Shown here piece by piece: positions 10,557 to 64,000 of a stretch of DNA of 64,000 nucleotides. Both the position numbers and the translations under genes were made by a program. Each line of letters begins with the position of its first letter. The stretch's first letter is position 1. The notes beneath the pieces are model-generated. The model searched no databases and was not told where the DNA came from. It saw only the letters and a program-made list of their open reading frames with translations. The stretch lies in assembly GCA_040876345.1 (NCBI GenBank), contig JBBDPM010000006.1:392547-456546 (forward strand), in the 5' to 3' direction. Source of the DNA: Candidatus Woykebacteria bacterium (GTDB lineage Bacteria > Patescibacteriota > Microgenomatia > Woykebacterales > RBG-16-39-9b).

Positions 10557-11273
10557 TCAGATGATCCCGCGCTGCCACCCCAAAACCGCCGAATGGACTC
10601 GGTTCTTCGCACCTAACTTCCGGTTTATCACCCTAAAGTGTGTTCGAACCGTGTGTTCGGAGATGCATAATGTATCAGCGATCATTCTGTTGGTCTTGCC
10701 TTCTCTCAGTTGTTGAAGTACCTCGATCTCACGAGGCGTCAACTCCTCTTCAACACCGCCGGCGCCGTTGCTGGCAGACTCTAGCGCGAGACGAACGGCA
10801 AGAGGTTTGGACAATACTGTCCTACCTGCCAATGCATCACTGAATGCGGCGATGAAACCCTGAGTATCGAATGACTCATCGATCACTCCAGCAACACCCG
10901 CTTGAAGCGCTTTGCGTGCCATGGAATCTTCCACGGACGTGATCGGGAGGTAGAGTAGTTTCGCCTCAGGATAGAACCCCTGAAGTTCATCGACTCTACC
11001 TTGAACGTCATTCCCCTTAACTGAGAAGAGAACAAGGTCGAACTTATACCTCTTCTCCTTTTCAGGAAGTGATTCCAGGCGCACCTCGATCGATTGCTTC
11101 TGCGATATGATGAGAGCCACGATTGCCTCTTCCAGGAGCTCGCTTCCCAACGATACTAGCATTCGGACTGTCATTCTTCGAACCTCCTTGTTCCTCTGAA
11201 CACTGAATCGGCTTCCGTCGATCTTCCTTGACCTTAAGCTTACAACCAGGCTGGATACTAATATTAAATTCAC
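10557..11273 (-). CDS. LuxR/FixJ-family transcriptional regulator (C-terminal HTH; N-terminal receiver-like domain)
   Basis: LTPREIEVLQQLREGKTNRMIADTLCISEHTVRTHFRVINRKLG = LuxR HTH; GC-rich; real start may be the internal Met near 11174. Confidence 0.7.
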   Translation of the reverse strand: MNLILVSSLVVSLRSRKIDGSRFSVQRNKEVRRMTVRMLVSLGSELLEEAIVALIISQKQSIEVRLESLPEKEKRYKFDLVLFSVKGNDVQGRVDELQGFYPEAKLLYLPITSVEDSMARKALQAGVAGVIDESFDTQGFIAAFSDALAGRTVLSKPLAVRLALESASNGAGGVEEELTPREIEVLQQLREGKTNRMIADTLCISEHTVRTHFRVINRKLGAKNRVHSAVLGWQRGII

Positions 11274-11382
11274 AAATTGTCAACAAAATCTAAGAAAATT
11301 ATGATGGGTAGGAAAATAGTTTAGTGCGGGCGGAGGCTGAATGAGCAAGCTCACTAGCCTCTCCCCCGCACACTGTCGCGCC

Positions 11383-12045
11383 TCAGATGGCAGGCGGTCG
11401 GCAGAGGGGCGGGATCTCGAAGCCCTTATCGATCCGGTCCACGATTGTGTACGTGACCGTGAATTCCGAGAGTTCTCCGTACCCGATCATCCCCACGCCA
11501 TTGAACGTCCCAGCTGCCGATGCGAAAGCAAGGTGCTTACGCATCAAGTTATGGTAGCCGAAGTCGCCGTCTTCGTAGCAGTCCTTCGTGTCGAAAGCGA
11601 CTGGGTTGCCATCGGCCGTTAGCTCGACCCTGAGGTCGTAGCTGAAGTTGCCGACATAGACAGCGTCCTGGCCTCGCGGCAGGTACACCTCGGCTGTCAC
11701 CAACGAGCTGAGGTTGTATGTCGCCAACCCAGCTCCTGCCTTCACGTCCACGAAGGCGTAGCCAGTGGTGTACCAGAAGTCACGGCACCGCCAGAACTTG
11801 CACCGGTACGTCCGGGTTTCCACCTTCACGTTCGGGTAGAACTCGCCGGTGTCCGGGTCTTGGTACGACGGTTCGTAGACGCTCACGTTCACGTCTGTGT
11901 GAAAGTTGCGCCCGTGGTCGATGGTCATAGCCGCAAACACGGAGGACCCTTCGACCGTCTCCTGCGTGACGTTGGCCGACACGAGAGTCGGAACCAGCGC
12001 CAGCAGAGCTACCATGGCGATCACGATTCCTAGTAACCGTTTCAC
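11383..12045 (-). CDS. secreted hypothetical protein (signal peptide)
   Basis: N-terminal MKRLLGIVIAMVALLALVPTLVSA signal; GC-rich (~60%) coding-like composition. Confidence 0.5.
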   Translation of the reverse strand: MKRLLGIVIAMVALLALVPTLVSANVTQETVEGSSVFAAMTIDHGRNFHTDVNVSVYEPSYQDPDTGEFYPNVKVETRTYRCKFWRCRDFWYTTGYAFVDVKAGAGLATYNLSSLVTAEVYLPRGQDAVYVGNFSYDLRVELTADGNPVAFDTKDCYEDGDFGYHNLMRKHLAFASAAGTFNGVGMIGYGELSEFTVTYTIVDRIDKGFEIPPLCRPPAI

Positions 12046-29831: not shown

Positions 29832-30473
29832 TTATATTGATGTCTTGTTCTTTCTTAAACTTAAGACCAAGGCAGCTACTGCGACCACCAAAGCTGCGTA
29901 TGCAGACCAGGTGGTGAGCCGATCAGTACCGGGATTCTCGGTTTTGCTCTCCTGACCAGAAAGATCATCGACAACTTTAGTTGTCGAGTACGGCCCTAAA
30001 CCCTTCTTTTCCATTTCTTCTTGCTCTTCTTCACTCAAGTTTTCTTTGGGCTCCTGATCCCAAGACACCACCGTGCCGTCGGAATAAGTTTGGTAGGCTT
30101 TCCAGAGTAAATTGGCTTTTTCACCGGGAGCTTGGGCGCTGAAGAGAAACTCATCCCTTTGCCCCTCTGGTATTAACCCGCCTGTCCAATTTATCTCGAC
30201 CTCTTTAGCTTCTTCCCCCTTACCCTCTTTTTTTATCGCTATCTTCCATCCAGGCTTTACATTAGGAATCACGCTATCAAGACCCTCTGGTATAACAAGC
30301 CTCAGGGCTACAGTTGGTATTTCCATTTCATTGGGAACGCTAACCGTAAATACTTGACGAGCGGCGAGGCCAACCTCATCCGGTTTTACAACTACATGAG
30401 CGAACACACTTGTTGCGGCTAATCCAAGCATTATCGGTAAGAGAGCTAAACTAATGAATAACTTATTTCTCAT
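29832..30473 (-). CDS. YcnI-like (DUF1775) secreted copper-binding-type protein, C-terminal TM anchor
   Basis: signal peptide ending VFA then mature N-terminus HVVVKP (His1), acidic linker, C-terminal hydrophobic anchor; family call moderate. Confidence 0.5.
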   Translation of the reverse strand: MRNKLFISLALLPIMLGLAATSVFAHVVVKPDEVGLAARQVFTVSVPNEMEIPTVALRLVIPEGLDSVIPNVKPGWKIAIKKEGKGEEAKEVEINWTGGLIPEGQRDEFLFSAQAPGEKANLLWKAYQTYSDGTVVSWDQEPKENLSEEEQEEMEKKGLGPYSTTKVVDDLSGQESKTENPGTDRLTTWSAYAALVVAVAALVLSLRKNKTSI

Positions 30474-30523
30474 AAGAAAACTCCTTTCAATAAGAAATAC
30501 GCTTAAATAATAAAGACTGATGA

Positions 30524-31357
30524 TTAAGCCGCGTCGGGAGGGGATTTATTGTCGATTGATCTAAATTTTGATAGTGAAGGACTCTCATGTTCAATTTCTA
30601 ACAACAGCCCAGCCACATCGACAAAAGACTCCACACCAAGGGGCGTTATCGGTACAATCGGTTGCGCCATACAGCAGGGATGTTCTGACGAGTGTGATTG
30701 CTGGGTATCATGATTTTCATGATGACGGAACAATAAGAAACCTGATGGTAAAGCCTGATGTAGAACGAATGTGGCTATGATAATTAACAACCAAAATTTT
30801 GGGTTAGTTGATTTTTCACTTACTGACTCCTTAGATTTCCTCTTCAATCTAAAAATGAAAGAGAAGGTAGCTACGGCAGCTATAATTAACCCAATTGTCA
30901 TATAAAGTCCGCTAGAGTCTCCCTTAGAATCTGATGAATTTCCCAAACGCTCTCTAGATACCCTTAGATCGTAAGTGATATTAAAAGGCTGAAAAGCGTC
31001 TGGCTCCTTAGGAGTTCCTTTTAGGACTAGTGTGTAGACCGCTTTTTCTCGAAAGGTAAAGGAAAAACTTTCTGAGGTAAGACCAGTTTCTTGAATAAGC
31101 GGGGCGGAAAATATTTCTTTTCTGCTTCGTAAAATACTTACAGCACAACTGCAGTTTGAGGAATTGAATTTTCCGCTTTTATCTTTTATTTCAAAATAAA
31201 AGTCAGCCACTTCCCCCACATAGGGATCATCATCCGGATTTATATGAATAACCGCCCCGATTGAACCATCTGTTTTTAAGATGTGAGCCTCAACTGGGGA
31301 GGCCCCTAAGCTTAGTATCGATATGACCAGCAACGGGATAAGAAGAAGCTTTCTCAT
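30524..31357 (-). CDS. secreted membrane-anchored protein with mature N-terminal His, CxC and C-terminal His-rich (HHENHDTQQSHSSEHPCC) tail
   Basis: start taken at MRKLLLIPLLV; signal peptide ...PVEA then HILK; TM then His/Cys-rich tail. Confidence 0.4.
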   Translation of the reverse strand: MRKLLLIPLLVISILSLGASPVEAHILKTDGSIGAVIHINPDDDPYVGEVADFYFEIKDKSGKFNSSNCSCAVSILRSRKEIFSAPLIQETGLTSESFSFTFREKAVYTLVLKGTPKEPDAFQPFNITYDLRVSRERLGNSSDSKGDSSGLYMTIGLIIAAVATFSFIFRLKRKSKESVSEKSTNPKFWLLIIIATFVLHQALPSGFLLFRHHENHDTQQSHSSEHPCCMAQPIVPITPLGVESFVDVAGLLLEIEHESPSLSKFRSIDNKSPPDAA

Positions 31358-31364
31358 AGATAAT

Positions 31365-32921
31365 CTATTCAACTTTGACGGTAAAATAGGCAACAAATAG
31401 TTTGCCATTGTGATTAAACTGGGCAAACGCTCTGTAGACTCCAGCCTTAAAAGGCCCATAAATACCAATCGGTAAAAATTCGACAGTTGGTCCACCAGAG
31501 GCGTCCTTTACCGGCGGCGTCAAATTGTAAGGGTGGACGTGTAAATAATCGTAATTATCCTGTTTTATCATTACGAGATGCCCAAAGGCGTTTAAGTAGG
31601 GCTTTAAGTTGGTTACTGGCTCTTTGGTATTAGCATCTTTAATAGTAAAGCTGATTTTTTGTTTTCCCAAAGACATATCCGCTGCTTTTAACGGGGCGCC
31701 CGTAGATAACTCTACTTCATAATCACCAAAAATCTTAACTGGGTGGTGGTCGACAGGCTGGCTAGCTTTTACCTCTTTCTTTTCGCCAACTTGTAAGCTG
31801 AAAGCGATCTGCTGCTCAATTCCTCCGAAAGGCTGAAAGTTAGCGTAAAGACGGTAGGTTGAATCGTGGGGGAAGGAAGTAGTGATTACAAATTCGGCTC
31901 CTTTCTGCACTGGATGAATATGATCAAAGTAAGCTAACTCTCCATCCACAATAATTAAATGGAAAGTTTTTTCCCAGGGAGCTTTGAAAAGCGACACGGG
32001 AGAACCGCTGCTAGCATCAAAAACTTTAAACCTTAGGGTAGTTTTTTGTTTTGGTAAAATGCCCTCTTGATGATCAAAATTTACAGTATAACGCTTTGTT
32101 TTGTCTCCATCTAAACCTGGTGAATTGTTTGTGGTGGTGGAAGGGGCGGTTCCCTTTTGAGCCTCTTCGGCAAGCTTAATGTGTTGGGAGTGAATACCTA
32201 TCGACGTTGTGCCTTCATGTGGTGGCTTAAGATAAAAGCTTGCGTAAGTTATTAAACCTACTACCAACGCTAAGCTTAAACCTACTTTGGGCAGCCAAAG
32301 AAACTTCTCGGCTAAAAACCGGTCAAATCTTATTGCCTCCAAAATTAAAAGGACCGAAAGGGCCACGAAAAATATCTTTGGGATAGATGCCGACAAATCA
32401 ATAAAGTGGGTGCCAAGCATTAAGGCGTGAATTCCAATTAAGGTCGCCGCAATATATACCAATCGATGCAGCATCTTCCAACGTCTTCCAAGTTTCTGAA
32501 CCGCCCAATTAAATGAAGTAGCGGCCATAGAAGACAAGATCAGTAAAGCGATGAAACTGAGGCTGATTGCTTTTAAATAAGCGTTGCTAAGAAACCCAAG
32601 CCCTGAAAAGCCACCTAAAAGCCACCAAAAAGCTATTTGAGAGTGGAGCAGAGCAAAAAAGAAAGCCGAAACACCAATCCCCCTTCTGGCCACTAAATGA
32701 AGGGATTTAGTGGGTAGTCTGGGAAAAAGCTTGTATAAAGGGCTGGCTATTAGCGCCAAGTACAAATAAGTTACCGCTGTCAGAGCGTATATTTGGGCCA
32801 GTCTAATTTTTTGAAGATCGGCAGATTCTATATTCGTTTTTACGAATAAATAGATCAAGAGGGCTACCGCTGCACTAGTTATTAAAATTATTTTTCTTAT
32901 GTTCTTAATTAAAAAAATCAT
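31365..32921 (-). CDS. MsrQ/YedZ-like ferric-reductase-type heme b membrane domain fused to periplasmic His-motif domain
   Basis: N-domain LHLVARRGIGVSAFFFALLHS and LGRRWKMLHRLVYIAATLIGIH (MsrQ His pairs); C-domain with FDHIHPV and YLHVHPYN motifs; 518 aa. Confidence 0.55.
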   Translation of the reverse strand: MIFLIKNIRKIILITSAAVALLIYLFVKTNIESADLQKIRLAQIYALTAVTYLYLALIASPLYKLFPRLPTKSLHLVARRGIGVSAFFFALLHSQIAFWWLLGGFSGLGFLSNAYLKAISLSFIALLILSSMAATSFNWAVQKLGRRWKMLHRLVYIAATLIGIHALMLGTHFIDLSASIPKIFFVALSVLLILEAIRFDRFLAEKFLWLPKVGLSLALVVGLITYASFYLKPPHEGTTSIGIHSQHIKLAEEAQKGTAPSTTTNNSPGLDGDKTKRYTVNFDHQEGILPKQKTTLRFKVFDASSGSPVSLFKAPWEKTFHLIIVDGELAYFDHIHPVQKGAEFVITTSFPHDSTYRLYANFQPFGGIEQQIAFSLQVGEKKEVKASQPVDHHPVKIFGDYEVELSTGAPLKAADMSLGKQKISFTIKDANTKEPVTNLKPYLNAFGHLVMIKQDNYDYLHVHPYNLTPPVKDASGGPTVEFLPIGIYGPFKAGVYRAFAQFNHNGKLFVAYFTVKVE

Positions 32922-33802
32922 CTCTTTACCCGGCTTAAATAAATACTCAAACCAACAGAGCCCAGAACGAAGACTACTATTATATATAGTAAAGGTGACT
33001 TAGTTACATCTTTAGAACCAGCTGATTCTGTAACAACTGGAACTTTACCACCCACCGTACTAATATCAACAAATTTTAACGTTTCTCCTTCTCTGTCTAC
33101 CCTTACTCCAGTATGATCAATCAGTCCATTCTTATCCTTAACTTGAAGAAGAATAAAGCTTGTTGAAAACTCATCCGCGGTAAAGGAGCGCTGGGCGATT
33201 CTACCTTTTACATACTTATTCTCCCCCAAAAACCACTCCTCAGAATCTAGAGATGTGGAAGAATCGCTCCTAGACTGGCTCACAAATTTAATCTGCTTTC
33301 CCACCTTAAATTCTCCCTGCAGCAAGGCTATTTTTGCCTCCGGCATCTTATATTCTCTTGAGGCAACTACATCTATCTGCACACTATCCAAAAGGGTAAA
33401 CTCCGGAGAATCTGGAGATTTAGCCTCGATTGTGGTTAGGTAAGACCCAATTTTTTCATAAAGATGACTTTGATCAATACCATAGGAAAAGTCTTTTGTG
33501 TCGTCCCCCCACTTCCAGCGAAAGGTTGAGTTTTCGATTATCTCCTTAGGGGCCGAGAATTGTTTTGTGTCGATTAGAAACTGGATTGTCTCGTTAACTA
33601 AATACTTATCCGCTGCGTTGTCCCAGGAAATACCAGGTTTAAAAATAGAGTCCCCTAGATAATAAAGGTTAGTCTGGGCATACTTACCGTTTATTAAAAG
33701 GAAGGGTGGACCAGCGCCATGGGCCGACACAGGAACGGGTAAAAACATTGTCGTGATAATAGCTAATAAAATCAGAGAAACCAAAAAGCTCTTAAACATC
33801 AC
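32918..33802 (-). CDS. secreted hypothetical protein, mature N-terminal His, C-terminal TM anchor
   Basis: signal peptide ...PVSA then HGAGPP; C-terminal LLYIIVVFVLGSVGLSIYL anchor. Confidence 0.4.
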   Translation of the reverse strand: MMFKSFLVSLILLAIITTMFLPVPVSAHGAGPPFLLINGKYAQTNLYYLGDSIFKPGISWDNAADKYLVNETIQFLIDTKQFSAPKEIIENSTFRWKWGDDTKDFSYGIDQSHLYEKIGSYLTTIEAKSPDSPEFTLLDSVQIDVVASREYKMPEAKIALLQGEFKVGKQIKFVSQSRSDSSTSLDSEEWFLGENKYVKGRIAQRSFTADEFSTSFILLQVKDKNGLIDHTGVRVDREGETLKFVDISTVGGKVPVVTESAGSKDVTKSPLLYIIVVFVLGSVGLSIYLSRVKR

Positions 33803-33875
33803 AACCTATATTTTTACCACAAAAAGAACTTTTTCGCTAAGGGGTTTATATCGCTTCTTTGAGGATCAATATCTC

Positions 33876-57216: not shown

Positions 57217-59400
57217 TTAGATCACTAAGTTCTGTAGTAGAGCTCTCGCGTCCCTAACTGACTTTAAATTGAATCTGGCCTTTGAACTCCCTAAGCCGAC
57301 TTTAATTGAATAAGCACCGCCCGGAAGCTGGCCAAAAATATCCTCGTCAGTTACATCATCTCCTAAAGCCAGTACAAAATCCCACTTTTTACTACCTAAA
57401 AACCCTATCGTAGCTCTCCCCTTATTTATTTGGTCGCTTTTGATTTCGACCACTTTGCTCCCTTCCAAATATTGAAGGTTAAAATTAGGAGTAAGACCAT
57501 TTAAGGTTGCGGAAAGTTCCCGGCATCTTATCATTCCAAGACCAGGATCTACCTTTCGGTAATGCCAAGCAAGAGAAAAATCTTTCTCTTCTATGAATGA
57601 TCCTGGGGTTCGGTCAACATACCTTACCAAGATTGGGTAAATTTCTTTCTTCCAATCAGAAGAGATATTATCTACAAGGTCCCATTCTTTGTTTTTTTCT
57701 TTTATCCAGGCTCCGTGCTCCGCTACTAAGTTGAGGGGTAAATCACCAAACCATTCATCCAATGTTTCCTTATTTCTACCGCTTATAATAACTAGCTCGT
57801 TCTTCGTATCTTTAGACATAATACTCAACAAATTTAAAAGATCTTTATCTGGCTTCGCTTGCTCAGGCGTTGCCGCAAAAGTCACTAAAGTCCCGTCATA
57901 ATCTAGCAAAAGGAGTCTCTTTTTTGCTTTTGCATAATTTTGCGCCAAGTTGTCTCTTGAATCTTTATTTAAGATCTTTTTCTTGAGATTATCCTGAATA
58001 CACCTAATCTCTTCTAATCTTTCCAGAAAACTTTTAACCCACCATTTTTCAGTGTAGTGAGCTAATTCTTTTTGCATAAGCCTCACCCTAGATATCTTCT
58101 CTTCATCACTCATCGCAATACCTTTCTTCAAAGCTTCGACAATCTCATCCTTATTGTTAGGGTTTATTACTAATGCTTCTCCAAGTTCTTCGGCGGCACC
58201 GGCCATCTCACTTAAAATCAAAACTCCCCGGCCATCTCGCTTAGTAGCCACAAACTCCTTGGCAATTAGATTCATCCCATCCCTTATTGGGGTAACTAAG
58301 GCAACGTCCGCCACGCTGTAAAGAGCCGCAAGTTCCGTGAAGTCAAAAGTACGATACAGATACCAGATAGGGGTCCAGCCAACGTTTCCATATTTACCAT
58401 TAATTCTTCCAGTGAGCTCATCAACTTGTTTTTTTATAACTTGATACTCTTCAACCTTAGTGCGGGTCGGAGCAGCCAATAAAATAAAAACCACCTTATC
58501 GTGGGTGAGAGGATTTCTTTCCAAAAAATCACTATACGCCTCAAGCCTTTGGGGAATACCCTTTGTATAATCAAGCCTATCAACAGACAAAATCACTTTA
58601 CGATTTCCAATCTTTCTTTTTAATTTTGTAATTTCTGTCTGCACCTTGATATCTTTGTGAGCATTATTGAACTTTTCGTAATCAACACCCAAAGGGAAAG
58701 CATCTGCTTTTACAATGCGCTCTCCGGTGTTAATTTGGCCAAGAGAATGATCCAGTCCTAAAAGACGGTGAACACTGTTTAAAAAGTGACGCGCGTATTC
58801 ATAGGTATGAAATCCAATAACGTCTGCTCCAAGAAGTCCTTTTAAAATTTCTACCCGTTGGGGAAGAAGGCGAAAAAGTTCAAACGACGGAAAAGGTATA
58901 TGAAGAAAAAACCCAATTTTTGCATTTGGTAGTTTTTCTCGGAGAAGTGCGGGAAGAAGCATTAAGTGGTAATCATGAACCCAAATGGTATCTTTAGCTT
59001 CGGCATTTTCCAGTACCGCGTCCCGAAAGGATTCGTTAACCTTTTTGTAAGACTGCCAAAAACTCTTATTATAGGTGGCTGTTTTACTAAAATAGTGAAA
59101 AAGTGGCCAAATAGTACTATTGCAAAATCCGCCGTAATAATTCTCAATTTCTTTCTGGGATTGAAAAACAGGATAATAGTTGAAATTTGAAATTAGCTTT
59201 TTCTTTAATTCTCTCGCTTTTTTTTCCAGACTACTAATTATATAGGCTCCTGGCCAACCAACCCAAAGGTAGTTACCAGATTTCTGAAATGAATCCAAAC
59301 CTGAAGACAAACCACCAGCCGCGTGCGCAAATTTAAAACCTTCTTTTGTATTTTTAACTCTTATTGGTAGTCTATTTGAGACTAAAATTATTTTTGACAC
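57217..59400 (-). CDS. bifunctional trehalose-6-phosphate synthase / trehalose-phosphatase (OtsA-OtsB fusion)
   Basis: N-terminal SKIILVSNRLP (GT20) and C-terminal LLLDYDGTLV HAD motif; start set at GTG (59400) because the longer ORF N-terminus is read through tRNA-Ser. Confidence 0.8.
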   Translation of the reverse strand: MSKIILVSNRLPIRVKNTKEGFKFAHAAGGLSSGLDSFQKSGNYLWVGWPGAYIISSLEKKARELKKKLISNFNYYPVFQSQKEIENYYGGFCNSTIWPLFHYFSKTATYNKSFWQSYKKVNESFRDAVLENAEAKDTIWVHDYHLMLLPALLREKLPNAKIGFFLHIPFPSFELFRLLPQRVEILKGLLGADVIGFHTYEYARHFLNSVHRLLGLDHSLGQINTGERIVKADAFPLGVDYEKFNNAHKDIKVQTEITKLKRKIGNRKVILSVDRLDYTKGIPQRLEAYSDFLERNPLTHDKVVFILLAAPTRTKVEEYQVIKKQVDELTGRINGKYGNVGWTPIWYLYRTFDFTELAALYSVADVALVTPIRDGMNLIAKEFVATKRDGRGVLILSEMAGAAEELGEALVINPNNKDEIVEALKKGIAMSDEEKISRVRLMQKELAHYTEKWWVKSFLERLEEIRCIQDNLKKKILNKDSRDNLAQNYAKAKKRLLLLDYDGTLVTFAATPEQAKPDKDLLNLLSIMSKDTKNELVIISGRNKETLDEWFGDLPLNLVAEHGAWIKEKNKEWDLVDNISSDWKKEIYPILVRYVDRTPGSFIEEKDFSLAWHYRKVDPGLGMIRCRELSATLNGLTPNFNLQYLEGSKVVEIKSDQINKGRATIGFLGSKKWDFVLALGDDVTDEDIFGQLPGGAYSIKVGLGSSKARFNLKSVRDARALLQNLVI

Positions 59401-59462
59401 TAGAATTTGTTTAAGCAGGCTTAACTTATGGCTTTGACCACCTGAACCCAAGGGGGCGAAGG

Positions 59463-59552
59463 TGGCGGAGGGGGTGGGATTCGAACCCACGGTACCCTCG
59501 CGGGCACGCACGCTTTCCAAGCGTGTGCACTAGGCCACTATGCGACCCCTCC
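59463..59552 (-). tRNA. tRNA-Ser (anticodon GGA), long variable arm
   Basis: acceptor GGAGGGG/CCCCTCC, anticodon loop ttGGAaa, long variable arm, GTGGG-TTCGAAT-CCCAC T-arm, CCA encoded. Confidence 0.8.
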
Positions 59553-60318
59553 ACAAAGCGCGTCATATTATACCAGAAAGCGGAATAACTTGACTAAGCA
59601 AGCTAGCGGTGGTATAAGAATCCATGGGAGAAGGATGATCGACCGGACCGGAAGTTCCACTAGGAGGTTTACCATGACCCAGTATGACCAGCGCGGCAGC
59701 CCTGTCGGCCACCACGCTGCGGCGCAGACGGCGACAACGGCCCCCACAGCGGGCACAACGACGCCGACTATGCCGAAGACCACCCGTCGCCCCGGCCGGA
59801 GGTAGCTCGCAGTCCCGCCCGCGCGAAGGTAGAAGACACCAGCACTTCGAACTGCGTGACCATACCGTCACCAGCAGGTGAGGTCGGATACGCACCGTAC
59901 TGGCCTTAGGCACTAGAACGTGCGCTTCTTGCCTGCGTTTTACGAGCCCGTGGCCTAAGTCGACGAACCTATCACCTAGAACCAGGCCCGCCCGACGCAC
60001 AACTGTGCTGACGGCCCATATCCCCACACAAGGAAACTGCCGCACAAAGGCAAGGACCACGTGGGATCGTATGGTTAGCAAGTACTCAAGGATGGGCATA
60101 CGAATCCGGTCGACACTGACTCCCAAGGACCCACCAGGTGTACCTATCACAGGAGCACTCGGTGGGTCCTCTCTCATTTATTTGAACTTCACAAGACAAA
60201 AACCAATTAAAACTTTCTCAAAACCTCTCTTAGCAAGTAGCTTTTCTAATGGTAAGATAATTTTGATGGCGGAGTGAAACCATAACGTTAAGGAAGAGAT
60301 CAACGGAGGGAAGGATCC

Positions 60319-61020
60319 ATGAACCGTTACATCATAATGGTCGCCTTGTCCATTGCATTTTTCTTGGCGGTTACGAGGCCGAACAGTGGAGTTCCGCCGG
60401 CAATTCAGCCAACCACCCAGACGGTGCCTATCACACCAAATTCCGTGGTAATCACCAAATACATCGAGGTACCAGCTCCAACCCAGGCTCAGCCAAGTCC
60501 GACAGCGAGAGCGGAGCAATCAACGGCAACTTCAGTGCAAACCGTACCTAGGGCGGAGGCCGCGATTAGCCGAATCCGTATACCGGAGTACGAGGTGGAC
60601 GCACCGGTAATAACCATGGGGATAGACGATAACGGCGTGATGGAGGCTCCCGAGAAACCAACAGATGTGGCGTGGTACGATTTCACCAACAATCCAAGCT
60701 CTGGAAGGCAGTGCTGCAACGCTGTTTTCGCGGGACACGTGGACAGCAGCTACTCAGGGGATCCTGGACCAGCGGTCTTCTGGCCTCTGAAATACCTCGT
60801 TCGCGGCGATGTGGTTGAGGTGGAGATGGAAGACGGAACAGTTTACCACTACCAAGTGGTATCAAACGAGCTGGTGGATGCAGCCACTGCCGATGTCGGC
60901 GAGATCATCGGTCCAACCCAAAAAGAGACTGTCACCCTCATAACTTGTGGCGGACACTTTAACCAAGTGACTCACCACCACGAAGGGCGGGTGATCGTGA
61001 AAGCAGAAAAGGTTCCCTGA
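60319..61020 (+). CDS. sortase (transpeptidase), membrane-anchored
   Basis: N-terminal TM; catalytic TLITC Cys motif and upstream FAGHVD His; GC-rich. Confidence 0.75.
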   Translation: MNRYIIMVALSIAFFLAVTRPNSGVPPAIQPTTQTVPITPNSVVITKYIEVPAPTQAQPSPTARAEQSTATSVQTVPRAEAAISRIRIPEYEVDAPVITMGIDDNGVMEAPEKPTDVAWYDFTNNPSSGRQCCNAVFAGHVDSSYSGDPGPAVFWPLKYLVRGDVVEVEMEDGTVYHYQVVSNELVDAATADVGEIIGPTQKETVTLITCGGHFNQVTHHHEGRVIVKAEKVP

Positions 61021-61133
61021 GGTTGCACCAACCAAGCGACTCATGATATCTTCTCCTTGGATAATGGCCACTAAAGCCAGTTTGGCAAGGAAGGGAGGGA
61101 CAAACACACGGCCATTCCAATTCATCGGTAAGT

Positions 61134-61676
61134 TTGGAGACTGAGAGGTGCGAGATGCCTAAAAGGCACAAGCTCCTGGGGTTGGCTCTCTCCTATGCGT
61201 TCCCGCAGAGAGCTAGCTGGCCTCGGCATCTAACAGTCGTTGCAACGCTTGGGGTGGGGGCTTTTCTGTTCATCAGCCTCGGAATACCCCCAGCGACTGG
61301 GCCCCCGGCCCACGCAGCGACAACCAACAGTCTGGCTAGCCATGAGACGCCAGACCACGCCATAAGTAGCGCTGTCGGCAGGGAAGACAGGGTAGACCTA
61401 ACGGTCACCACCGCTCCAATAGTGCAGGGGGGTTGGGACGCCGCACCAGTAGAGTCCCTACCAGAAGCTACACACGAGGCTTCCGGGACCGGAACGCTGG
61501 TGATCATTAGCGCAGTTGCAGCCACCTTCGGCACCATTTTCGTCACTAGCTGCGTAGTCAGAGCAGTTCGAAACCGGGAGAGGCTTACTCCCTCCATGCT
61601 CCGCGCAGAACTAAGTCAACTGGTGGCGAAGCTGCGACAAGCGCTGGGAACAGGAAGAGTGACCCAAGACCGCTAG
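61134..61676 (+). CDS. putative sortase substrate surface protein (LPEAT sorting-signal-like C-terminus)
   Basis: signal-peptide-like N-terminus; C-terminal LPEAT + hydrophobic segment GTLVIISAVAATFGTIFV + basic tail RAVRNRER. Confidence 0.5.
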   Translation: METERCEMPKRHKLLGLALSYAFPQRASWPRHLTVVATLGVGAFLFISLGIPPATGPPAHAATTNSLASHETPDHAISSAVGREDRVDLTVTTAPIVQGGWDAAPVESLPEATHEASGTGTLVIISAVAATFGTIFVTSCVVRAVRNRERLTPSMLRAELSQLVAKLRQALGTGRVTQDR

Positions 61677-61789
61677 TAACCTTGGGCGGCTACAAACAGG
61701 CTTTATAAAAAGCCTGGTTCTTCGGAACAATATCGTTGGAGTCAAACTCCTGCTGGGGGTTGTACGCTTGCGTATTGCCCCCAGCGAAC

Positions 61790-62203
61790 TCACAACAAGT
61801 TTTTTGCTTCCTGGAAAACTTTTTTATCCGTTTTGAACGATAGTCTCTCTTCAACCTTACCAACTGGTAACCACTCTGCATTTTCCATTTCCCAATCGTG
61901 ATATTCAATATTTCCCGACACGTATGCCATTAAAAAATAAGTTACTTTCTTTTTAATTTTGTCTCCCTTGAGTTGATAAAAATATTCTGTGGGTGAGAGT
62001 TCTTTAATTATTTTGGCTTCCACCCCGCCTTCTTCTTTTACTTCGCGAAGGGCGGTAGCTTCTTTTGTCTCACCCGGGTCAATCAATCCTTTGGGGAAAA
62101 CCCAACCGTGATGTTGGGAATGTTGAACAACCAAAATATAAATTTGATCGTTTTCTCGTCTAACTACGATGCCGCCAGCAGATTCTTCAAATTTAAATGT
62201 CAT
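61790..62203 (-). CDS. NUDIX hydrolase
   Basis: Nudix box GETKEATALREVKEEGGVEA (Gx5Ex7REUxEExGU). Confidence 0.8.
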   Translation of the reverse strand: MTFKFEESAGGIVVRRENDQIYILVVQHSQHHGWVFPKGLIDPGETKEATALREVKEEGGVEAKIIKELSPTEYFYQLKGDKIKKKVTYFLMAYVSGNIEYHDWEMENAEWLPVGKVEERLSFKTDKKVFQEAKNLL

Positions 62204-62289
62204 AGTTTTGAATTTGAGCTCAAACTCTGTTAAAATATTTAATCACTTAGATGCAAGACAGTTATAACTGAATTATATCATTCCAACTT

Positions 62290-62365
62290 GCCCCCGTAGC
62301 TCAGTGGATAGAGCGCAACGTTGCGGACGTTGAGGTCGGAGGTTCGAATCCTCTCGGGGGCGCCA
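62290..62365 (+). tRNA. tRNA-Arg (anticodon GCG as read; unusual, verify)
   Basis: acceptor GCCCCCG/CGGGGGC, anticodon stem CAACG/CGTTG, loop ttGCGga, T54-T55-C56, CCA encoded. Confidence 0.7.
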
Positions 62366-62366
62366 C

Positions 62367-62458
62367 GGAGGGATGGCAGAGCCCGGTTTAATGCGCCGCT
62401 CTCGAAAAGCGGTTGGGTCGCAAGATCCTCGGAGGTTCGAATCCTCCTCCCTCCGCCA
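62367..62458 (+). tRNA. tRNA-Ser (anticodon CGA), long variable arm
   Basis: acceptor GGAGGGA/TCCCTCC, anticodon loop ctCGAaa, long variable arm, CCA encoded. Confidence 0.8.
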
Positions 62459-62486
62459 TGGTTCGACTACGCTCGCTATTCAAACT

Positions 62487-62562
62487 GCGCCTGTAGCTCA
62501 GTGGATAGAGCACAAGCCTCCGGAGCTTGAGGTCGAGAGTTCGAATCTCTCTAGGCGCGCCA
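62487..62562 (+). tRNA. tRNA-Arg (anticodon CCG)
   Basis: acceptor GCGCCTG/TAGGCGC (one G-U), anticodon loop ctCCGga, CCA encoded. Confidence 0.8.
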
Positions 62563-62567
62563 GGAAT

Positions 62568-63436: not shown

Positions 63437-64000
63437 ATGGTGTCAAGAACAATGGACCAAATAACCGCTAGCCGCGTACTACGCAATCCTGAACCTGCAG
63501 CGTCCTTACCACCCAACCTAAAAAGCGACTACGATGATCTGAAGGGACTAGTCGAGAGGGCGGGGCTGCTCGACAAGCAGCTTTCGTACTACATCGGCAA
63601 CATCACCATCAGGCTCGCTTTGCTCACCGGGAGCGTGGCGTTTCTCCTCTTCTTCGACAACTTCTGGCTCCAGCTTCTGAACGCTGCCTTCCTCGCTTTC
63701 GCGTTCGCCCAGATCGGCTTTCTCGGCCACGATGCCGGACACAAGCAGATCTTTGCGGGCAGTTCCTGGAACTACCTGTTCGGCCTGTTGCCGAACTTGT
63801 TGCTCGGCCTCAGCCGGGGTTGGTGGGTCGATACTCACAACGAGCATCACAGTAATCCAAACGACCTTGCCCGCGATCCGCACACCAGGCTGCCGATCTT
63901 CGCGTTCTCCGAGGATCAGGCGCTCAGCAAGCAAGGGCTACCGCGGCTCCTAATTCGCTACCAGGCACTCTACTTCTTCCCGATCCTGCTCCTTGAAGGG
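63437..64000 (+). CDS. fatty-acid desaturase, GC-rich paralog of 46446..47480 (3' partial, runs off window)
   Basis: open frame from ATG 63437 to window end; His boxes HDAGH and HNEHH; not in ORF track because no stop is reached. Confidence 0.7.
   Translation, partial: MVSRTMDQITASRVLRNPEPAASLPPNLKSDYDDLKGLVERAGLLDKQLSYYIGNITIRLALLTGSVAFLLFFDNFWLQLLNAAFLAFAFAQIGFLGHDAGHKQIFAGSSWNYLFGLLPNLLLGLSRGWWVDTHNEHHSNPNDLARDPHTRLPIFAFSEDQALSKQGLPRLLIRYQALYFFPILLLEG

What the first reader, a model, noticed from the sequence alone, without database searches (positions are those of the whole stretch)
59553..61690. GC-rich (~60%) island beside tRNA-Ser carrying a sortase and an LPEAT-type substrate, plus about 760 nt with no convincing gene
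Composition switches abruptly at the tRNA-Ser(GGA) 5' side and switches back at about 61690. The island encodes a TLITC sortase. Directly downstream is a protein ending LPEAT + hydrophobic helix + RAVRNRER; the motif lacks a G after the T, so the sortase class is unclear. 59553-60318 contains only Arg-rich junk ORFs, repeated ACCTATCAC and GTCGAC motifs, and may hold a pseudogene or RNA. This looks like a horizontally acquired surface-display cassette. The rest of the window gives no evidence of a typical Gram-positive envelope.
Basis: partly seen in the sequence, partly recalled or inferred. Interest (0 to 1): 0.6.

Follow-up and report, generated by a model that had tools for sequence, protein, structure and literature searches.

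The report
Foreign sortase gene islet in CPR bacterium
A 2.2-kb GC-rich insert next to a serine tRNA gene in a tiny-genome (CPR, Woykebacteria) bacterium carries an intact surface-protein-anchoring enzyme (sortase) taken from high-GC Chloroflexota-type bacteria. The proposed "substrate" gene and the 550-nt "empty" stretch beside it have no detectable relatives, so this is an ordinary gene-transfer islet rather than a complete surface-display cassette.

Summary
The window comes from a Candidatus Woykebacteria MAG (Microgenomates, CPR; host GC about 0.40). Positions 59618-61789 are the strongest compositional outlier in the 64 kb.

The insert fills a slot between the NUDIX gene and the promoter of tRNA-Ser(GGA). 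That slot is empty (0-200 nt) in 56 of 64 related metagenome loci. Independent assemblies span both junctions, so it is not a chimera.

The sortase (60319-61020) is intact: N-terminal membrane helix, sortase fold, and His140/Cys210/Arg224. It is class-F-like. Its closest relatives (50-61% identity) sit in GC 0.65-0.69 Dehalococcoidia-type contigs, next to canonical LPXTG proteins.

Two sister CPR lineages carry sortases in the same slot, but the three do not group together in a tree. This points to separate captures or replacements.

The "LPEAT substrate" (61155-61676) is not supported:
- the motif is not LPXTG;
- 30 residues follow the basic cluster;
- it has no homologue among 1.84 billion representative proteins;
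- similarly built small membrane-protein genes occupy the same position in relatives that lack a sortase.

The 59618-60170 block matches no gene or RNA family.

One point is unexplained: most donor loci have the sortase beside the same two tRNA-Ser genes (CGA and GGA). No integrase or att repeats are present. Interest is modest.

The parts
59463..59552 (-). Host tRNA-Ser(GGA), the left anchor of the slot
   Evidence: Found by ARAGORN and Rfam tRNA at 55.5 bits. Its D-arm, anticodon stem and variable arm differ from the donor-lineage tRNA-Ser(GGA). Only the T-arm/acceptor 3' part is near-identical.
59553..59617 (-). Conserved host tRNA promoter region. It has TAGTCA-18-TATAAT with TG on the minus strand (59596..59567). 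By inspection there is also a divergent plus-strand TTGACT(59590-59595)-17-TGgTATAAG(59610-59618).
   Evidence: Promoter scan. Positions 59463-59617 align at 82% to L010 6824-6977 and at 67% to L011/L012. The plus-strand site is my reading of the sequence.
59618..60170 (.). GC-rich block (GC 0.61) with no identifiable gene or RNA; probably decaying foreign DNA. It contains a 204-aa minus-strand ORF (59563-60177) and a 43-aa plus-strand ORF (59674-59805) preceded by AGGAGG.
   Evidence: No Pfam, NCBIfam or Rfam hit. No protein homologue was found (inconclusive). There is no remnant of the donor beta-propeller gene. There is no DNA homology to relatives' slots, plasmids or phages. Codon-phase GC changes along the block. 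Fold z-scores are -2.75 (plus strand) and -4.51 (minus strand).
60126..60170 (+). Imperfect 20-nt inverted repeat followed by TCTCTCATTTATTT; terminator-like on the plus strand
   Evidence: the repeat finder I4 and the MFE fold. The terminator scan did not call it, so this is inference only.
60171..60318 (+). AT-rich spacer. By inspection it holds a promoter-like TTAGCA-17-TGgTAAGAT (60230-60258) and a GGAGGG Shine-Dalgarno (60305-60310) for the sortase.
   Evidence: Sequence and GC dip. Function is inferred.
60319..61020 (+). Class-F-like sortase, 233 aa: TM helix at residues 4-18, disordered Pro/Thr linker, catalytic domain at about 83-233 with His140, Cys210 (TLITC) and Arg224
   Evidence: Pfam PF04203 at 77.6 bits. 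The best NCBIfam match is class F at 104 bits, below its cutoff of 166. The triad lies in 100%-conserved columns of 124 homologues. The AF2 model has pLDDT 85-95 in the domain and matches solved sortases at probability 1.0.
61155..61676 (+). Orphan 173-aa membrane protein with two hydrophobic segments: signal/anchor at 24-47, about 60 aa outside, ...SLPEATHEASGTG, TM at 111-138, RAVRNRER, then a 30-aa tail. It is not a demonstrable sortase substrate.
   Evidence: Its only hit among 1.84e9 representatives is itself. No Pfam or NCBIfam hit. Hydropathy. Called as a gene in the Logan contigs but not in the NCBI record.
61677..61789 (.). Intergenic right edge with two hairpins (61696-61720 and 61752-61785) between the convergent 173-aa ORF and NUDIX
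   Evidence: the repeat finder I8 and the sequence. Not homologous to relatives.
61790..62203 (-). Host NUDIX hydrolase, the right anchor of the slot
   Evidence: Pfam NUDIX, E 3e-22. It is 69-80% identical to the NUDIX of relatives.
62290..62562 (+). Host tRNA-Arg(GCG)/tRNA-Ser(CGA)/tRNA-Arg(CCG) cluster, inverted here relative to the four closest relatives
   Evidence: ARAGORN and minus-strand blastn matches to L010-L013.

Best explanation
Window 59618-61789 is a real, small, integrase-less foreign insert. It sits in a lineage-specific variable slot of a Candidatus Woykebacteria (Microgenomates, CPR) chromosome, between the 3' end of a NUDIX hydrolase gene and the promoter of tRNA-Ser(GGA).

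Its one recognisable gene is an intact, membrane-anchored, class-F-like sortase. That gene was acquired from high-GC Chloroflexota (Dehalococcoidia-type) bacteria and is partly ameliorated towards host composition.

Shown:
- foreign composition;
- an empty slot in most relatives;
- donor-type nearest homologues;
- an intact fold and catalytic triad;
- polyphyly of the sortases found in the same slot of sister lineages.

Inferred:
- The enzyme is expressed from the AT-rich spacer.
- It inserts by its N-terminal helix.
- It cleaves LPXTG-type sorting signals through a Cys210 thioacyl intermediate (with His140 and Arg224) and links the proteins to the cell wall.
- It acts on substrates encoded elsewhere in the genome, because the donor cassette's own LPXTG proteins were not co-transferred.

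The downstream 173-aa ORF is an orphan membrane protein with two hydrophobic segments. It belongs to a positional class of fast-evolving small membrane-protein genes found next to NUDIX in relatives with or without a sortase. It is probably not a sortase substrate. The upstream 550-nt GC-rich block is most likely decayed remains of acquired DNA. Integration was by illegitimate or short-homology recombination, because there is no integrase and there are no att repeats.
For: Host identity and independent assemblies.

Composition. GC3 is 0.59 for the sortase, 0.34-0.35 for host genes and 0.76-0.87 for donor sortases.

Empty slot: 56 of 64 NUDIX/tRNA-Ser(gga) loci have a gap of 200 nt or less. All fills of 0.9 kb or more are in the closest relatives. 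Host homology ends at 59617 and resumes at NUDIX.

Donors: the best hit P0002 (61% identity) and P0011, P0008, P0030, P0009 and P0013 all lie on contigs of GC 0.65-0.69. The order there is LPXTG protein(s), beta-propeller, sortase.

Polyphyly:
- window-L010 identity is 43% and window-L013 is 47%;
- L013 is 68% identical to donor L008a;
- the three CPR sortases group together in 0 of 100 NJ bootstraps;
- L013 shares a 3-residue deletion with the L008a/L015 clade, and the window sortase does not.

Intact enzyme.

The 173-aa ORF as an orphan. Similarly built small membrane-protein genes in sortase-less slots (L011, L018, L023, L025).

No att repeats. No mobility gene or any other domain hit. Donors and CPR relatives co-occur in the same samples (ERZ23486227: L010 and L096; Ga0247727: L006 and L020).
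Against: - All three CPR sortases occupy the same slot in the same orientation. A single old acquisition with fast divergence would also explain this.
- The tree is only NJ on 219 columns, and most sequences carry no taxon label.
- NCBIfam class F scores below its curated cutoff.
- Three near-invariant positions deviate (S127, H221, K231) and there is a 4-residue insert, so activity is not guaranteed.
- The left block shows some codon-phase periodicity, promoter-like, SD-like and terminator-like signals, and a fold z-score of -4.5. It may therefore not be mere junk.
- Six of the seven distinct donor loci examined have the sortase next to tRNA-Ser(CGA) and tRNA-Ser(GGA). These are the same two tRNAs that bracket the CPR slot. 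Random illegitimate insertion does not explain this.
Confidence: 0.65

Rival explanations
1. True sortase-substrate cassette. The 173-aa protein would be a dedicated substrate with a non-canonical LPEAT signal, cleaved and anchored by the adjacent sortase.
For: It lies immediately downstream on the same strand. It shows the order signal-like N-terminus, short ectodomain, LPEAT, 8-residue spacer, TM helix, Arg-rich cluster. This mirrors the layout of donor LPXTG signals. L013 also has a small signal/TM ORF downstream of its slot sortase.
Against: LPEAT has Ala where Thr is required and Thr/His where Gly is required. Thirty residues follow the basic cluster. The protein has no homologue anywhere. 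The donor-substrate C-terminal profile gives E 0.31 in a database of 7 sequences. Similarly built small membrane-protein genes exist next to NUDIX in relatives without a sortase (L011, L018, L023, L025). L010 has a sortase but no such gene.
Confidence: 0.15
2. Single ancient acquisition, or vertical inheritance. One sortase entered (or was already in) the slot in the ancestor of this Woykebacteria clade, and the three copies have diverged rapidly since. The link with tRNA-Ser would reflect old synteny shared with Chloroflexota.
For: The slot and the orientation are the same in the window, L010/L022 and L013. Donor loci also have the sortase beside tRNA-Ser(CGA)/(GGA). CPR proteins are known to evolve fast (my own knowledge).
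Against: The three copies never cluster (0/100). L013 is 68% identical to a donor paralogue but 45-47% to the other CPR copies, and it shares that paralogue's deletion. The flanking NUDIX is 69-80% identical. GC3 remains 0.51-0.60, far above the host's 0.34-0.42. Close relatives L024 and L011/12 lack it.
Confidence: 0.15
3. The 59618-60170 block encodes a functional product. This would be either a roughly 550-nt plus-strand transcript with a 43-aa leader ORF or a structured RNA, rather than decayed DNA.
For: By inspection the plus strand has TTGACT-17-TGgTATAAG, AGGAGG 6 nt before the ATG at 59674, and a hairpin plus T-rich tract at 60126-60188. Fold z-scores are -2.75 and -4.51. Codon-phase GC is strong in 59850-60150.
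Against: No Rfam match even at E up to 5. No homologous block in any relative or elsewhere. The frame favoured by the periodicity contains several stop codons. GC-rich DNA gives long spurious ORFs and low folding energies.
Confidence: 0.12
4. Assembly chimera that joins a high-GC organism's DNA into a CPR contig.
For: There are abrupt GC switches. Both Logan contigs stop at 59466-59468, inside the tRNA.
Against: Both junctions are internal to two Logan assemblies from different runs and to the 586-kb MAG contig, all 100% identical. Relatives from other samples have GC-rich sortases in the same slot. GC3 is intermediate rather than donor-like.
Confidence: 0.03

Closest known systems
Class F sortases (NCBIfam NF033748; characterised example: Cutibacterium/Propionibacterium acnes SrtF, which recognises LPXTG; Girolamo et al. 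2019 as cited in PMC8225981)
   Same: Class F is the best-scoring sortase class (E 4.8e-30, against 1.5e-08 for the next class). The protein has the TLITC motif, the His-Cys-Arg triad, an N-terminal membrane anchor and the sortase beta-barrel fold. NCBI itself names it a class F sortase. Donor-lineage homologues sit beside LPXTG proteins.
   Different: The score (104 bits) is below the curated cutoff (166). There is no solved close relative (phmmer against PDB finds nothing). There is a 4-residue insert before the catalytic His, and three near-invariant positions are substituted. No cognate LPXTG protein is nearby. The host is a CPR bacterium.
Dehalococcoidia-type sortase cassette (LPXTG Big_1/Invasin_D3-like protein(s), PD40/Tricorn-like beta-propeller, sortase, tRNA-Ser(CGA), tRNA-Ser(GGA)), seen here in L005-L009, L014, L015 and L096
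   Same: The sortase catalytic domain is 50-61% identical. The gene lies close to tRNA-Ser(GGA) and tRNA-Ser(CGA).
   Different: Only the sortase is present in the window. No LPXTG protein, beta-propeller or donor tRNA remnant is found. The orientation relative to tRNA-Ser(GGA) is opposite. The N-terminal cytoplasmic segment and the C-terminal extension are trimmed.
tRNA-associated genomic islands / integrative elements
   Same: Foreign composition, position next to a tRNA gene, and absence from most relatives.
   Different: The insert lies on the 5' (promoter) side of the tRNA, not in its 3' end. It has no integrase, no att direct repeats and no other mobility genes, and it is only 2.2 kb long.
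Sortases of Microgenomates/CPR (family fam000526 in Meheust et al. 2019, PMC6744442)
   Same: Sortases are near-ubiquitous in Microgenomates, so a sortase in this host is expected.
   Different: This copy is compositionally foreign and groups with Chloroflexota-type sequences rather than with the sortases in the same slot of sister CPR lineages. I could not test whether the genome also has a native sortase.

Membership tests
Sortase superfamily (PF04203) | Significant match to the sortase domain over its full length | tested here: met
   Pfam gives 77.6 bits against a cutoff of 26.6, covering profile positions 1-125 of 125.
Sortase superfamily (PF04203) | Catalytic His-Cys-Arg triad with the TLxTC motif | tested here: met
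   His140, Cys210 (TLITC) and Arg224 fall in columns that are 100% conserved in 124 homologues.
Sortase superfamily (PF04203) | Eight-stranded beta-barrel sortase fold | tested here: met
   The AF2 model has pLDDT 85-95 over residues 83-233. Foldseek hits solved sortases of classes C, E, A and D at probability 1.0 with TM(target) 0.55-0.72.
Sortase superfamily (PF04203) | Transpeptidase activity on a sorting signal | not testable with these tools
   This needs a peptide cleavage assay.
Class F sortase (NF033748) | Score at or above the curated NCBIfam cutoff | tested here: not met
   The score is 104.2 bits against a cutoff of 166. Class F is still by far the best class, and the NCBI record names the protein class F.
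Cell-wall sorting signal (sortase substrate), for the 173-aa ORF | LPXTG-type pentapeptide (Thr at position 4, Gly/Ala/Asn at position 5) | tested here: not met
   The sequence reads SLPEATHE, with Ala at position 4 and Thr at position 5. Donor substrates read LPPTG, LPGTG, LPTTG and LPVTG.
Cell-wall sorting signal (sortase substrate), for the 173-aa ORF | Hydrophobic segment shortly after the motif | tested here: met
   A hydrophobic segment spans residues 111-138, starting 8 residues after LPEAT.
Cell-wall sorting signal (sortase substrate), for the 173-aa ORF | Short positively charged tail that ends the protein | tested here: not met
   RAVRNRER is followed by 30 more residues before the stop at 61676.
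Cell-wall sorting signal (sortase substrate), for the 173-aa ORF | Signal conserved in homologues | tested here: inconclusive
   There are no homologues to align: only a self-hit among 1.84e9 representatives.
tRNA-targeting integrative genomic island | Compositional deviation and absence from related genomes | tested here: met
tRNA-targeting integrative genomic island | Integrase/recombinase gene | tested here: not met
   None of the island ORFs submitted to Pfam/NCBIfam (four to Pfam, three to NCBIfam) matches any domain other than sortase.
tRNA-targeting integrative genomic island | Flanking direct repeats (att) that duplicate the tRNA 3' end | tested here: not met
   No flanking direct repeat of 12 nt or more is present. 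The insert lies on the 5' side of the tRNA.

The most novel reading that the evidence does not exclude
The slot between NUDIX and tRNA-Ser(GGA) may be a hotspot that has repeatedly captured sortase genes from Chloroflexota. In those donors the genes themselves sit beside tRNA-Ser(CGA)/tRNA-Ser(GGA). Capture would be by an integrase-independent route guided by the conserved tRNA-Ser sequences, followed by local inversions. Repeated one-way flow, together with co-occurrence of donors and recipients in the same samples, would then point to a physical (episymbiotic) association between these Woykebacteria and Dehalococcoidia-type hosts.
Probability: 0.15. Interest if true: 0.6.

Novelty: new member of a known kind. 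Interest (0 to 1): 0.32.

Why it matters
By itself this is one more horizontally acquired gene in a streamlined genome, in a group where sortases are already known to be common.

The comparative result is more useful. A defined, otherwise empty intergenic slot in one CPR clade holds sortases of three different Chloroflexota-type lineages, and a second GC-rich gene lies next to another tRNA-Ser pair nearby.

That gives a concrete, testable case of repeated cross-phylum gene flow into CPR bacteria without recognisable mobile-element machinery. It may also hint at who these uncultured bacteria live with.

It is a caution as well: an ORF that follows a sortase and contains "LP..T" is not thereby a substrate.

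Tried and rejected
- **Rfam.** Gathering thresholds on the whole window and E up to 5 on 59300-61900 returned only the tRNAs.
- **Pfam and NCBIfam.** The 204-aa, 90-aa, 71-aa and 173-aa ORFs gave nothing.
- **att-type direct repeats.** None flank the island or the desaturase insert.
- **tblastx of donor loci against the island.** Only the sortase domain and the host tRNA match.
- **Profile of donor beta-propeller genes against six-frame translations of the slots.** No remnant.
- **Donor tRNA and spacer DNA against the slots.** Only chance 9-12-mers.
- **Metallopeptidase-like slot genes of L013/L018/L023 against the window.** Nothing.
- **Profile of donor LPXTG C-termini against the small slot proteins.** Not significant.
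- **All-against-all of the small slot proteins.** Only L018 and L023 are related.
- **Big-database search with concatenated candidate peptides of the left block.** No hit. The candidate list was saturated, so this is inconclusive.
- **Plasmid and phage DNA searches.** No match.
- **Viral contigs for this sortase type.** None.
- **phmmer against PDB.** None.
- **Genome-contig scan.** Only one Thermomicrobiaceae locus.
- **Cluster-member names for the top hits.** Uninformative.
- **Co-transfer of the tRNA.** Rejected, because the window's tRNA-Ser(GGA) body differs from the donor tRNAs.
Full report
**Origin and observation.**
The sortase protein is identical to one annotated in the MAG GCA_040881185.1, contig JBBEDR010000006.1 (586 kb), named Candidatus Woykebacteria. 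This taxon belongs to the Microgenomates group of the Patescibacteria/CPR. Most 1-kb windows have GC of about 0.35-0.48. GC rises to 0.54-0.65 from about 59620 and returns to host level near 61690, with an AT-rich dip at 60171-60318. In strand-symmetric tetranucleotide space the island is the most deviant 2.2-kb stretch of the window: L1 distance 0.52, against a host mean of 0.21 with sd 0.04. tRNA-Ser(gga) lies at 59463-59552 on the minus strand, so the island abuts its 5' side.

**Not an assembly artefact.**
Two Logan assemblies of different runs (SRR27977658, 5245 bp; SRR27977662, 2929 bp) are 100% identical to the window from 59466/59468 onwards. They contain the tRNA, the whole island and the NUDIX flank. 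Both stop inside the 3' end of the tRNA, which I did not explain. Related genomes from other samples carry GC-rich sortases at the same place (see below).

**Boundaries and the empty site.**
I recovered relatives through the neighbouring OtsAB gene (loci L010-L013) and through a NUDIX alignment against JGI metagenomes (80 loci).
- The conserved backbone is tRNA-Arg(gcg) / tRNA-Ser(cga) / tRNA-Arg(ccg), NUDIX, tRNA-Ser(gga), and in the closest relatives OtsAB, DnaG, RpoD.
- Host-homologous DNA ends at window 59617 (tRNA plus promoter, 82% to L010) and resumes with the NUDIX coding sequence, whose stop is at 61790.
- In 56 of 64 informative loci tRNA-Ser(gga) starts 0-200 nt after NUDIX.
- Fills of 0.9-3 kb occur only among the closest relatives, those with NUDIX at least 69% identical.
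- The insert is therefore 59618-61789.
- No direct repeats flank it, and no integrase or other mobility domain is present.

**The sortase.**
ORF 60319-61020 (233 aa) matches Pfam Sortase over the full model (E 8.8e-22). Its best NCBIfam match is class F (104 bits, E 4.8e-30; next best class D at 1.5e-08), which is below the curated cutoff of 166. His140, Cys210 (TLITC) and Arg224 lie in invariant columns of an alignment of 124 homologues. S127, H221 and K231 depart from near-invariant residues, and a 4-residue insert (RQCC) precedes the catalytic His. An AlphaFold2 model shows an N-terminal helix (4-18), a disordered linker, and a confident beta-barrel domain (pLDDT 85-95). That domain matches solved sortases of classes C, E, A and D at probability 1.0. 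phmmer finds no solved close relative.

**Donor lineage.**
Of 981 homologues, the named ones are Dehalococcoidia class F sortases. Every close homologue whose contig I fetched lies in DNA of GC 0.65-0.69:
- P0002, the best hit at 61% identity (L014);
- P0011 (L005/L006);
- P0008 (L007);
- P0030 (L008/L009);
- P0009 (L015);
- P0013 (L096).

In six of these seven distinct loci the sortase is followed within about 50-120 nt by tRNA-Ser(cga), and by tRNA-Ser(gga) after it wherever the contig extends that far (L009 and L015 end inside tRNA-Ser(cga)); L096 lacks the tRNAs. Wherever upstream sequence is available, the loci also carry a divergent PD40/Tricorn-like beta-propeller gene. L005/L006, L007, L008 and L096 additionally carry one or two surface proteins ending in canonical signals (LPPTG, LPGTG, LPTTG, LPVTG, then TM, then WRYARTR-like tails). 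GC3 values are 0.34-0.42 for host genes, 0.59 for the window sortase and 0.76-0.87 for donor sortases. This fits transfer from a high-GC donor followed by partial amelioration. Donor-type and CPR contigs co-occur in the same samples: ERZ23486227 (L096 and L010) and Ga0247727 (L006 and L020).

**Sortases in the same slot of sister lineages are not each other's relatives.**
L010/L022 and L013 also carry a sortase between NUDIX and tRNA-Ser(gga), in the same orientation.
- Pairwise identities among the three CPR copies are 43-47%, while the flanking NUDIX proteins are 69-80% identical.
- L013 is 68% identical to donor L008a, and the window copy is 52-61% identical to L005/L014.
- In an NJ tree (124 sequences, 219 columns) the window copy groups with P0002/P0003/P0006/P0007/P0013. 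L013 groups with P0030/P0009/P0018. L010 groups with a Thermomicrobiaceae sequence.
- The CPR trio is together in 0 of 100 bootstraps, and any pair in at most 3.
- L013 shares a 3-residue deletion with the L008a/L015 clade that the window copy lacks.

I read this as separate captures or replacements at one slot. A single old capture with fast divergence remains a weaker alternative.

**The proposed substrate.**
The ORF most likely starts at the ATG at 61155 (173 aa; GAGAGG Shine-Dalgarno), as called on the Logan contigs. The NCBI record does not call it. It has two hydrophobic segments, 24-47 and 111-138.
- LPEAT fails positions 4 and 5 of LPXTG.
- A full HMMER pass over 1.84 billion representative proteins finds only the protein itself.
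- A profile of donor sorting signals does not recognise it.
- In relatives, the DNA next to NUDIX is likewise GC-rich (0.55-0.64). It encodes, convergent with NUDIX, small proteins with a signal peptide, a TM helix and (except in L011) an Arg-rich stretch after it. This holds in L011, L018, L023, L025 (no sortase; L020 shows the same but its contig ends within the slot) and L013 (sortase). Only L018 and L023 are alignable with each other.
- L010 has a sortase but no such gene.

So this gene type is not tied to the sortase. I put the substrate reading at about 0.15.

**The left block (59618-60170).**
- No Pfam, NCBIfam or Rfam match.
- No similarity to any relative's slot, to donor flanking genes, to plasmids or phages, or to slot genes of relatives.
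- A database search with concatenated candidate peptides returned nothing, but its candidate list was saturated, so it is inconclusive.
- The 204-aa minus-strand ORF is Arg-rich in its second half. Codon-phase GC is periodic in 59850-60150 but switches phase further left, and the best plus-strand frame has stop codons.
- By inspection there is a plus-strand TTGACT-17-TGgTATAAG, an AGGAGG 6 nt before an ATG at 59674 (43-aa ORF), and a hairpin plus T-rich tract at 60126-60188. Fold z-scores are -2.75 (plus strand) and -4.51 (minus strand).

Without any homologue these signals cannot be evaluated. Decayed foreign DNA is the most economical reading, and a transcript remains possible.

**Mechanism.**
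Inferred function: the sortase is anchored by its N-terminal helix. It would cleave LPXTG-type signals through Cys210 and attach the proteins to the wall. Its substrates are presumably encoded elsewhere. Sortases are near-ubiquitous in Microgenomates (PMC6744442), and the one characterised class F enzyme uses LPXTG (PMC8225981). No canonical substrate or second sortase lies in the 71 kb I could read.

Inferred acquisition: illegitimate or short-homology recombination into a permissive intergenic site.

Unexplained: donor sortases sit beside the same two tRNA-Ser genes that bracket the CPR slot, yet the window's tRNA body is host-type. No donor tRNA remnant exists, and the orientation is opposite. 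tRNA genes in this region are often inverted among relatives, so tRNA-guided recombination followed by inversion is conceivable but unproven.

**Verdict.**
This is a real, small, horizontally acquired islet. Its only recognisable cargo is an intact class-F-like sortase of Chloroflexota type. The 'substrate' and the 'cassette' are not supported. It is a new member of a known kind, of modest interest. The recurrent-capture and tRNA-Ser pattern is the only part worth following up.

Noticed in passing
window 62276-62566: The tRNA-Arg(gcg)/tRNA-Ser(cga)/tRNA-Arg(ccg) cluster is inverted in this genome relative to NUDIX when compared with the four closest relatives (L010-L013). Among the 80 metagenome loci, tRNA-Ser(gga) or the cluster is also inverted in several (for example L023, L025, L026, L050, L065).
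   Followed up: partly
window 63452-64000 (continues to about 64501; L001 13134-14183): A second GC-rich (0.58-0.60) single-gene insert encodes a fatty-acid desaturase (PF00487). It lies about 180 nt from tRNA-Ser(tga)/tRNA-Ser(gct), which are followed by tmRNA and SmpB. Relative L010 has no gene at that place. No att-like repeat is present. A desaturase is unexpected in a CPR genome.
   Followed up: partly
window 10557-12045: This is the second strongest compositional outlier of the window (GC up to 0.61). It holds a GerE/LuxR-type regulator (10557-11273, minus strand) and a 220-aa secreted protein with no Pfam match (11383-12045, minus strand). It may be another acquired pair.
   Followed up: partly
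window 59466-59468: Both independent Logan contigs end at the same point, inside the 3' end of tRNA-Ser(gga). The cause could be a repeated tRNA k-mer or population variation to the left of the tRNA.
   Followed up: no
window 29832-30545 and 32918-33805 (both minus strand): Two proteins have a C-terminal TM helix plus a short basic tail but no LPXTG. One is a DUF1775 (YcnI-like) protein ending ...NPGTD-TM-RKNKTSI. The other is a weakly PKD-like protein ending ...TM-SRVKR.
   Followed up: partly
L018 6766-7575, L023 6185-7024, L013 5033-5881: In relatives, the slot gene next to tRNA-Ser(gga) is a protein of about 270-280 aa at host GC. The L018 protein matches Tox-MPTase4 (metallopeptidase toxin 4, E 1.2e-06). 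L018 and L023 are about 50% identical. The L013 protein has an HEIAH motif. The window has no trace of this gene.
   Followed up: partly
L008 4001-5941: One Dehalococcoidia contig has two sortase paralogues (49% identical) flanking the tRNA-Ser(cga)/tRNA-Ser(gga) pair. In the NJ tree, the L013 sortase groups with the first paralogue's clade and the window sortase falls in the larger clade that contains the second.
   Followed up: partly
window 57217-59520: The mechanical 767-aa ORF for OtsAB runs over the tRNA-Ser gene. The real bifunctional trehalose-phosphate synthase/phosphatase is the 727-aa product starting at 59400.
   Followed up: yes
L010 and L096 (ENA ERZ23486227); L006 and L020 (JGI Ga0247727): Donor-type high-GC sortase contigs and CPR relatives with filled slots come from the same metagenome samples.
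   Followed up: no
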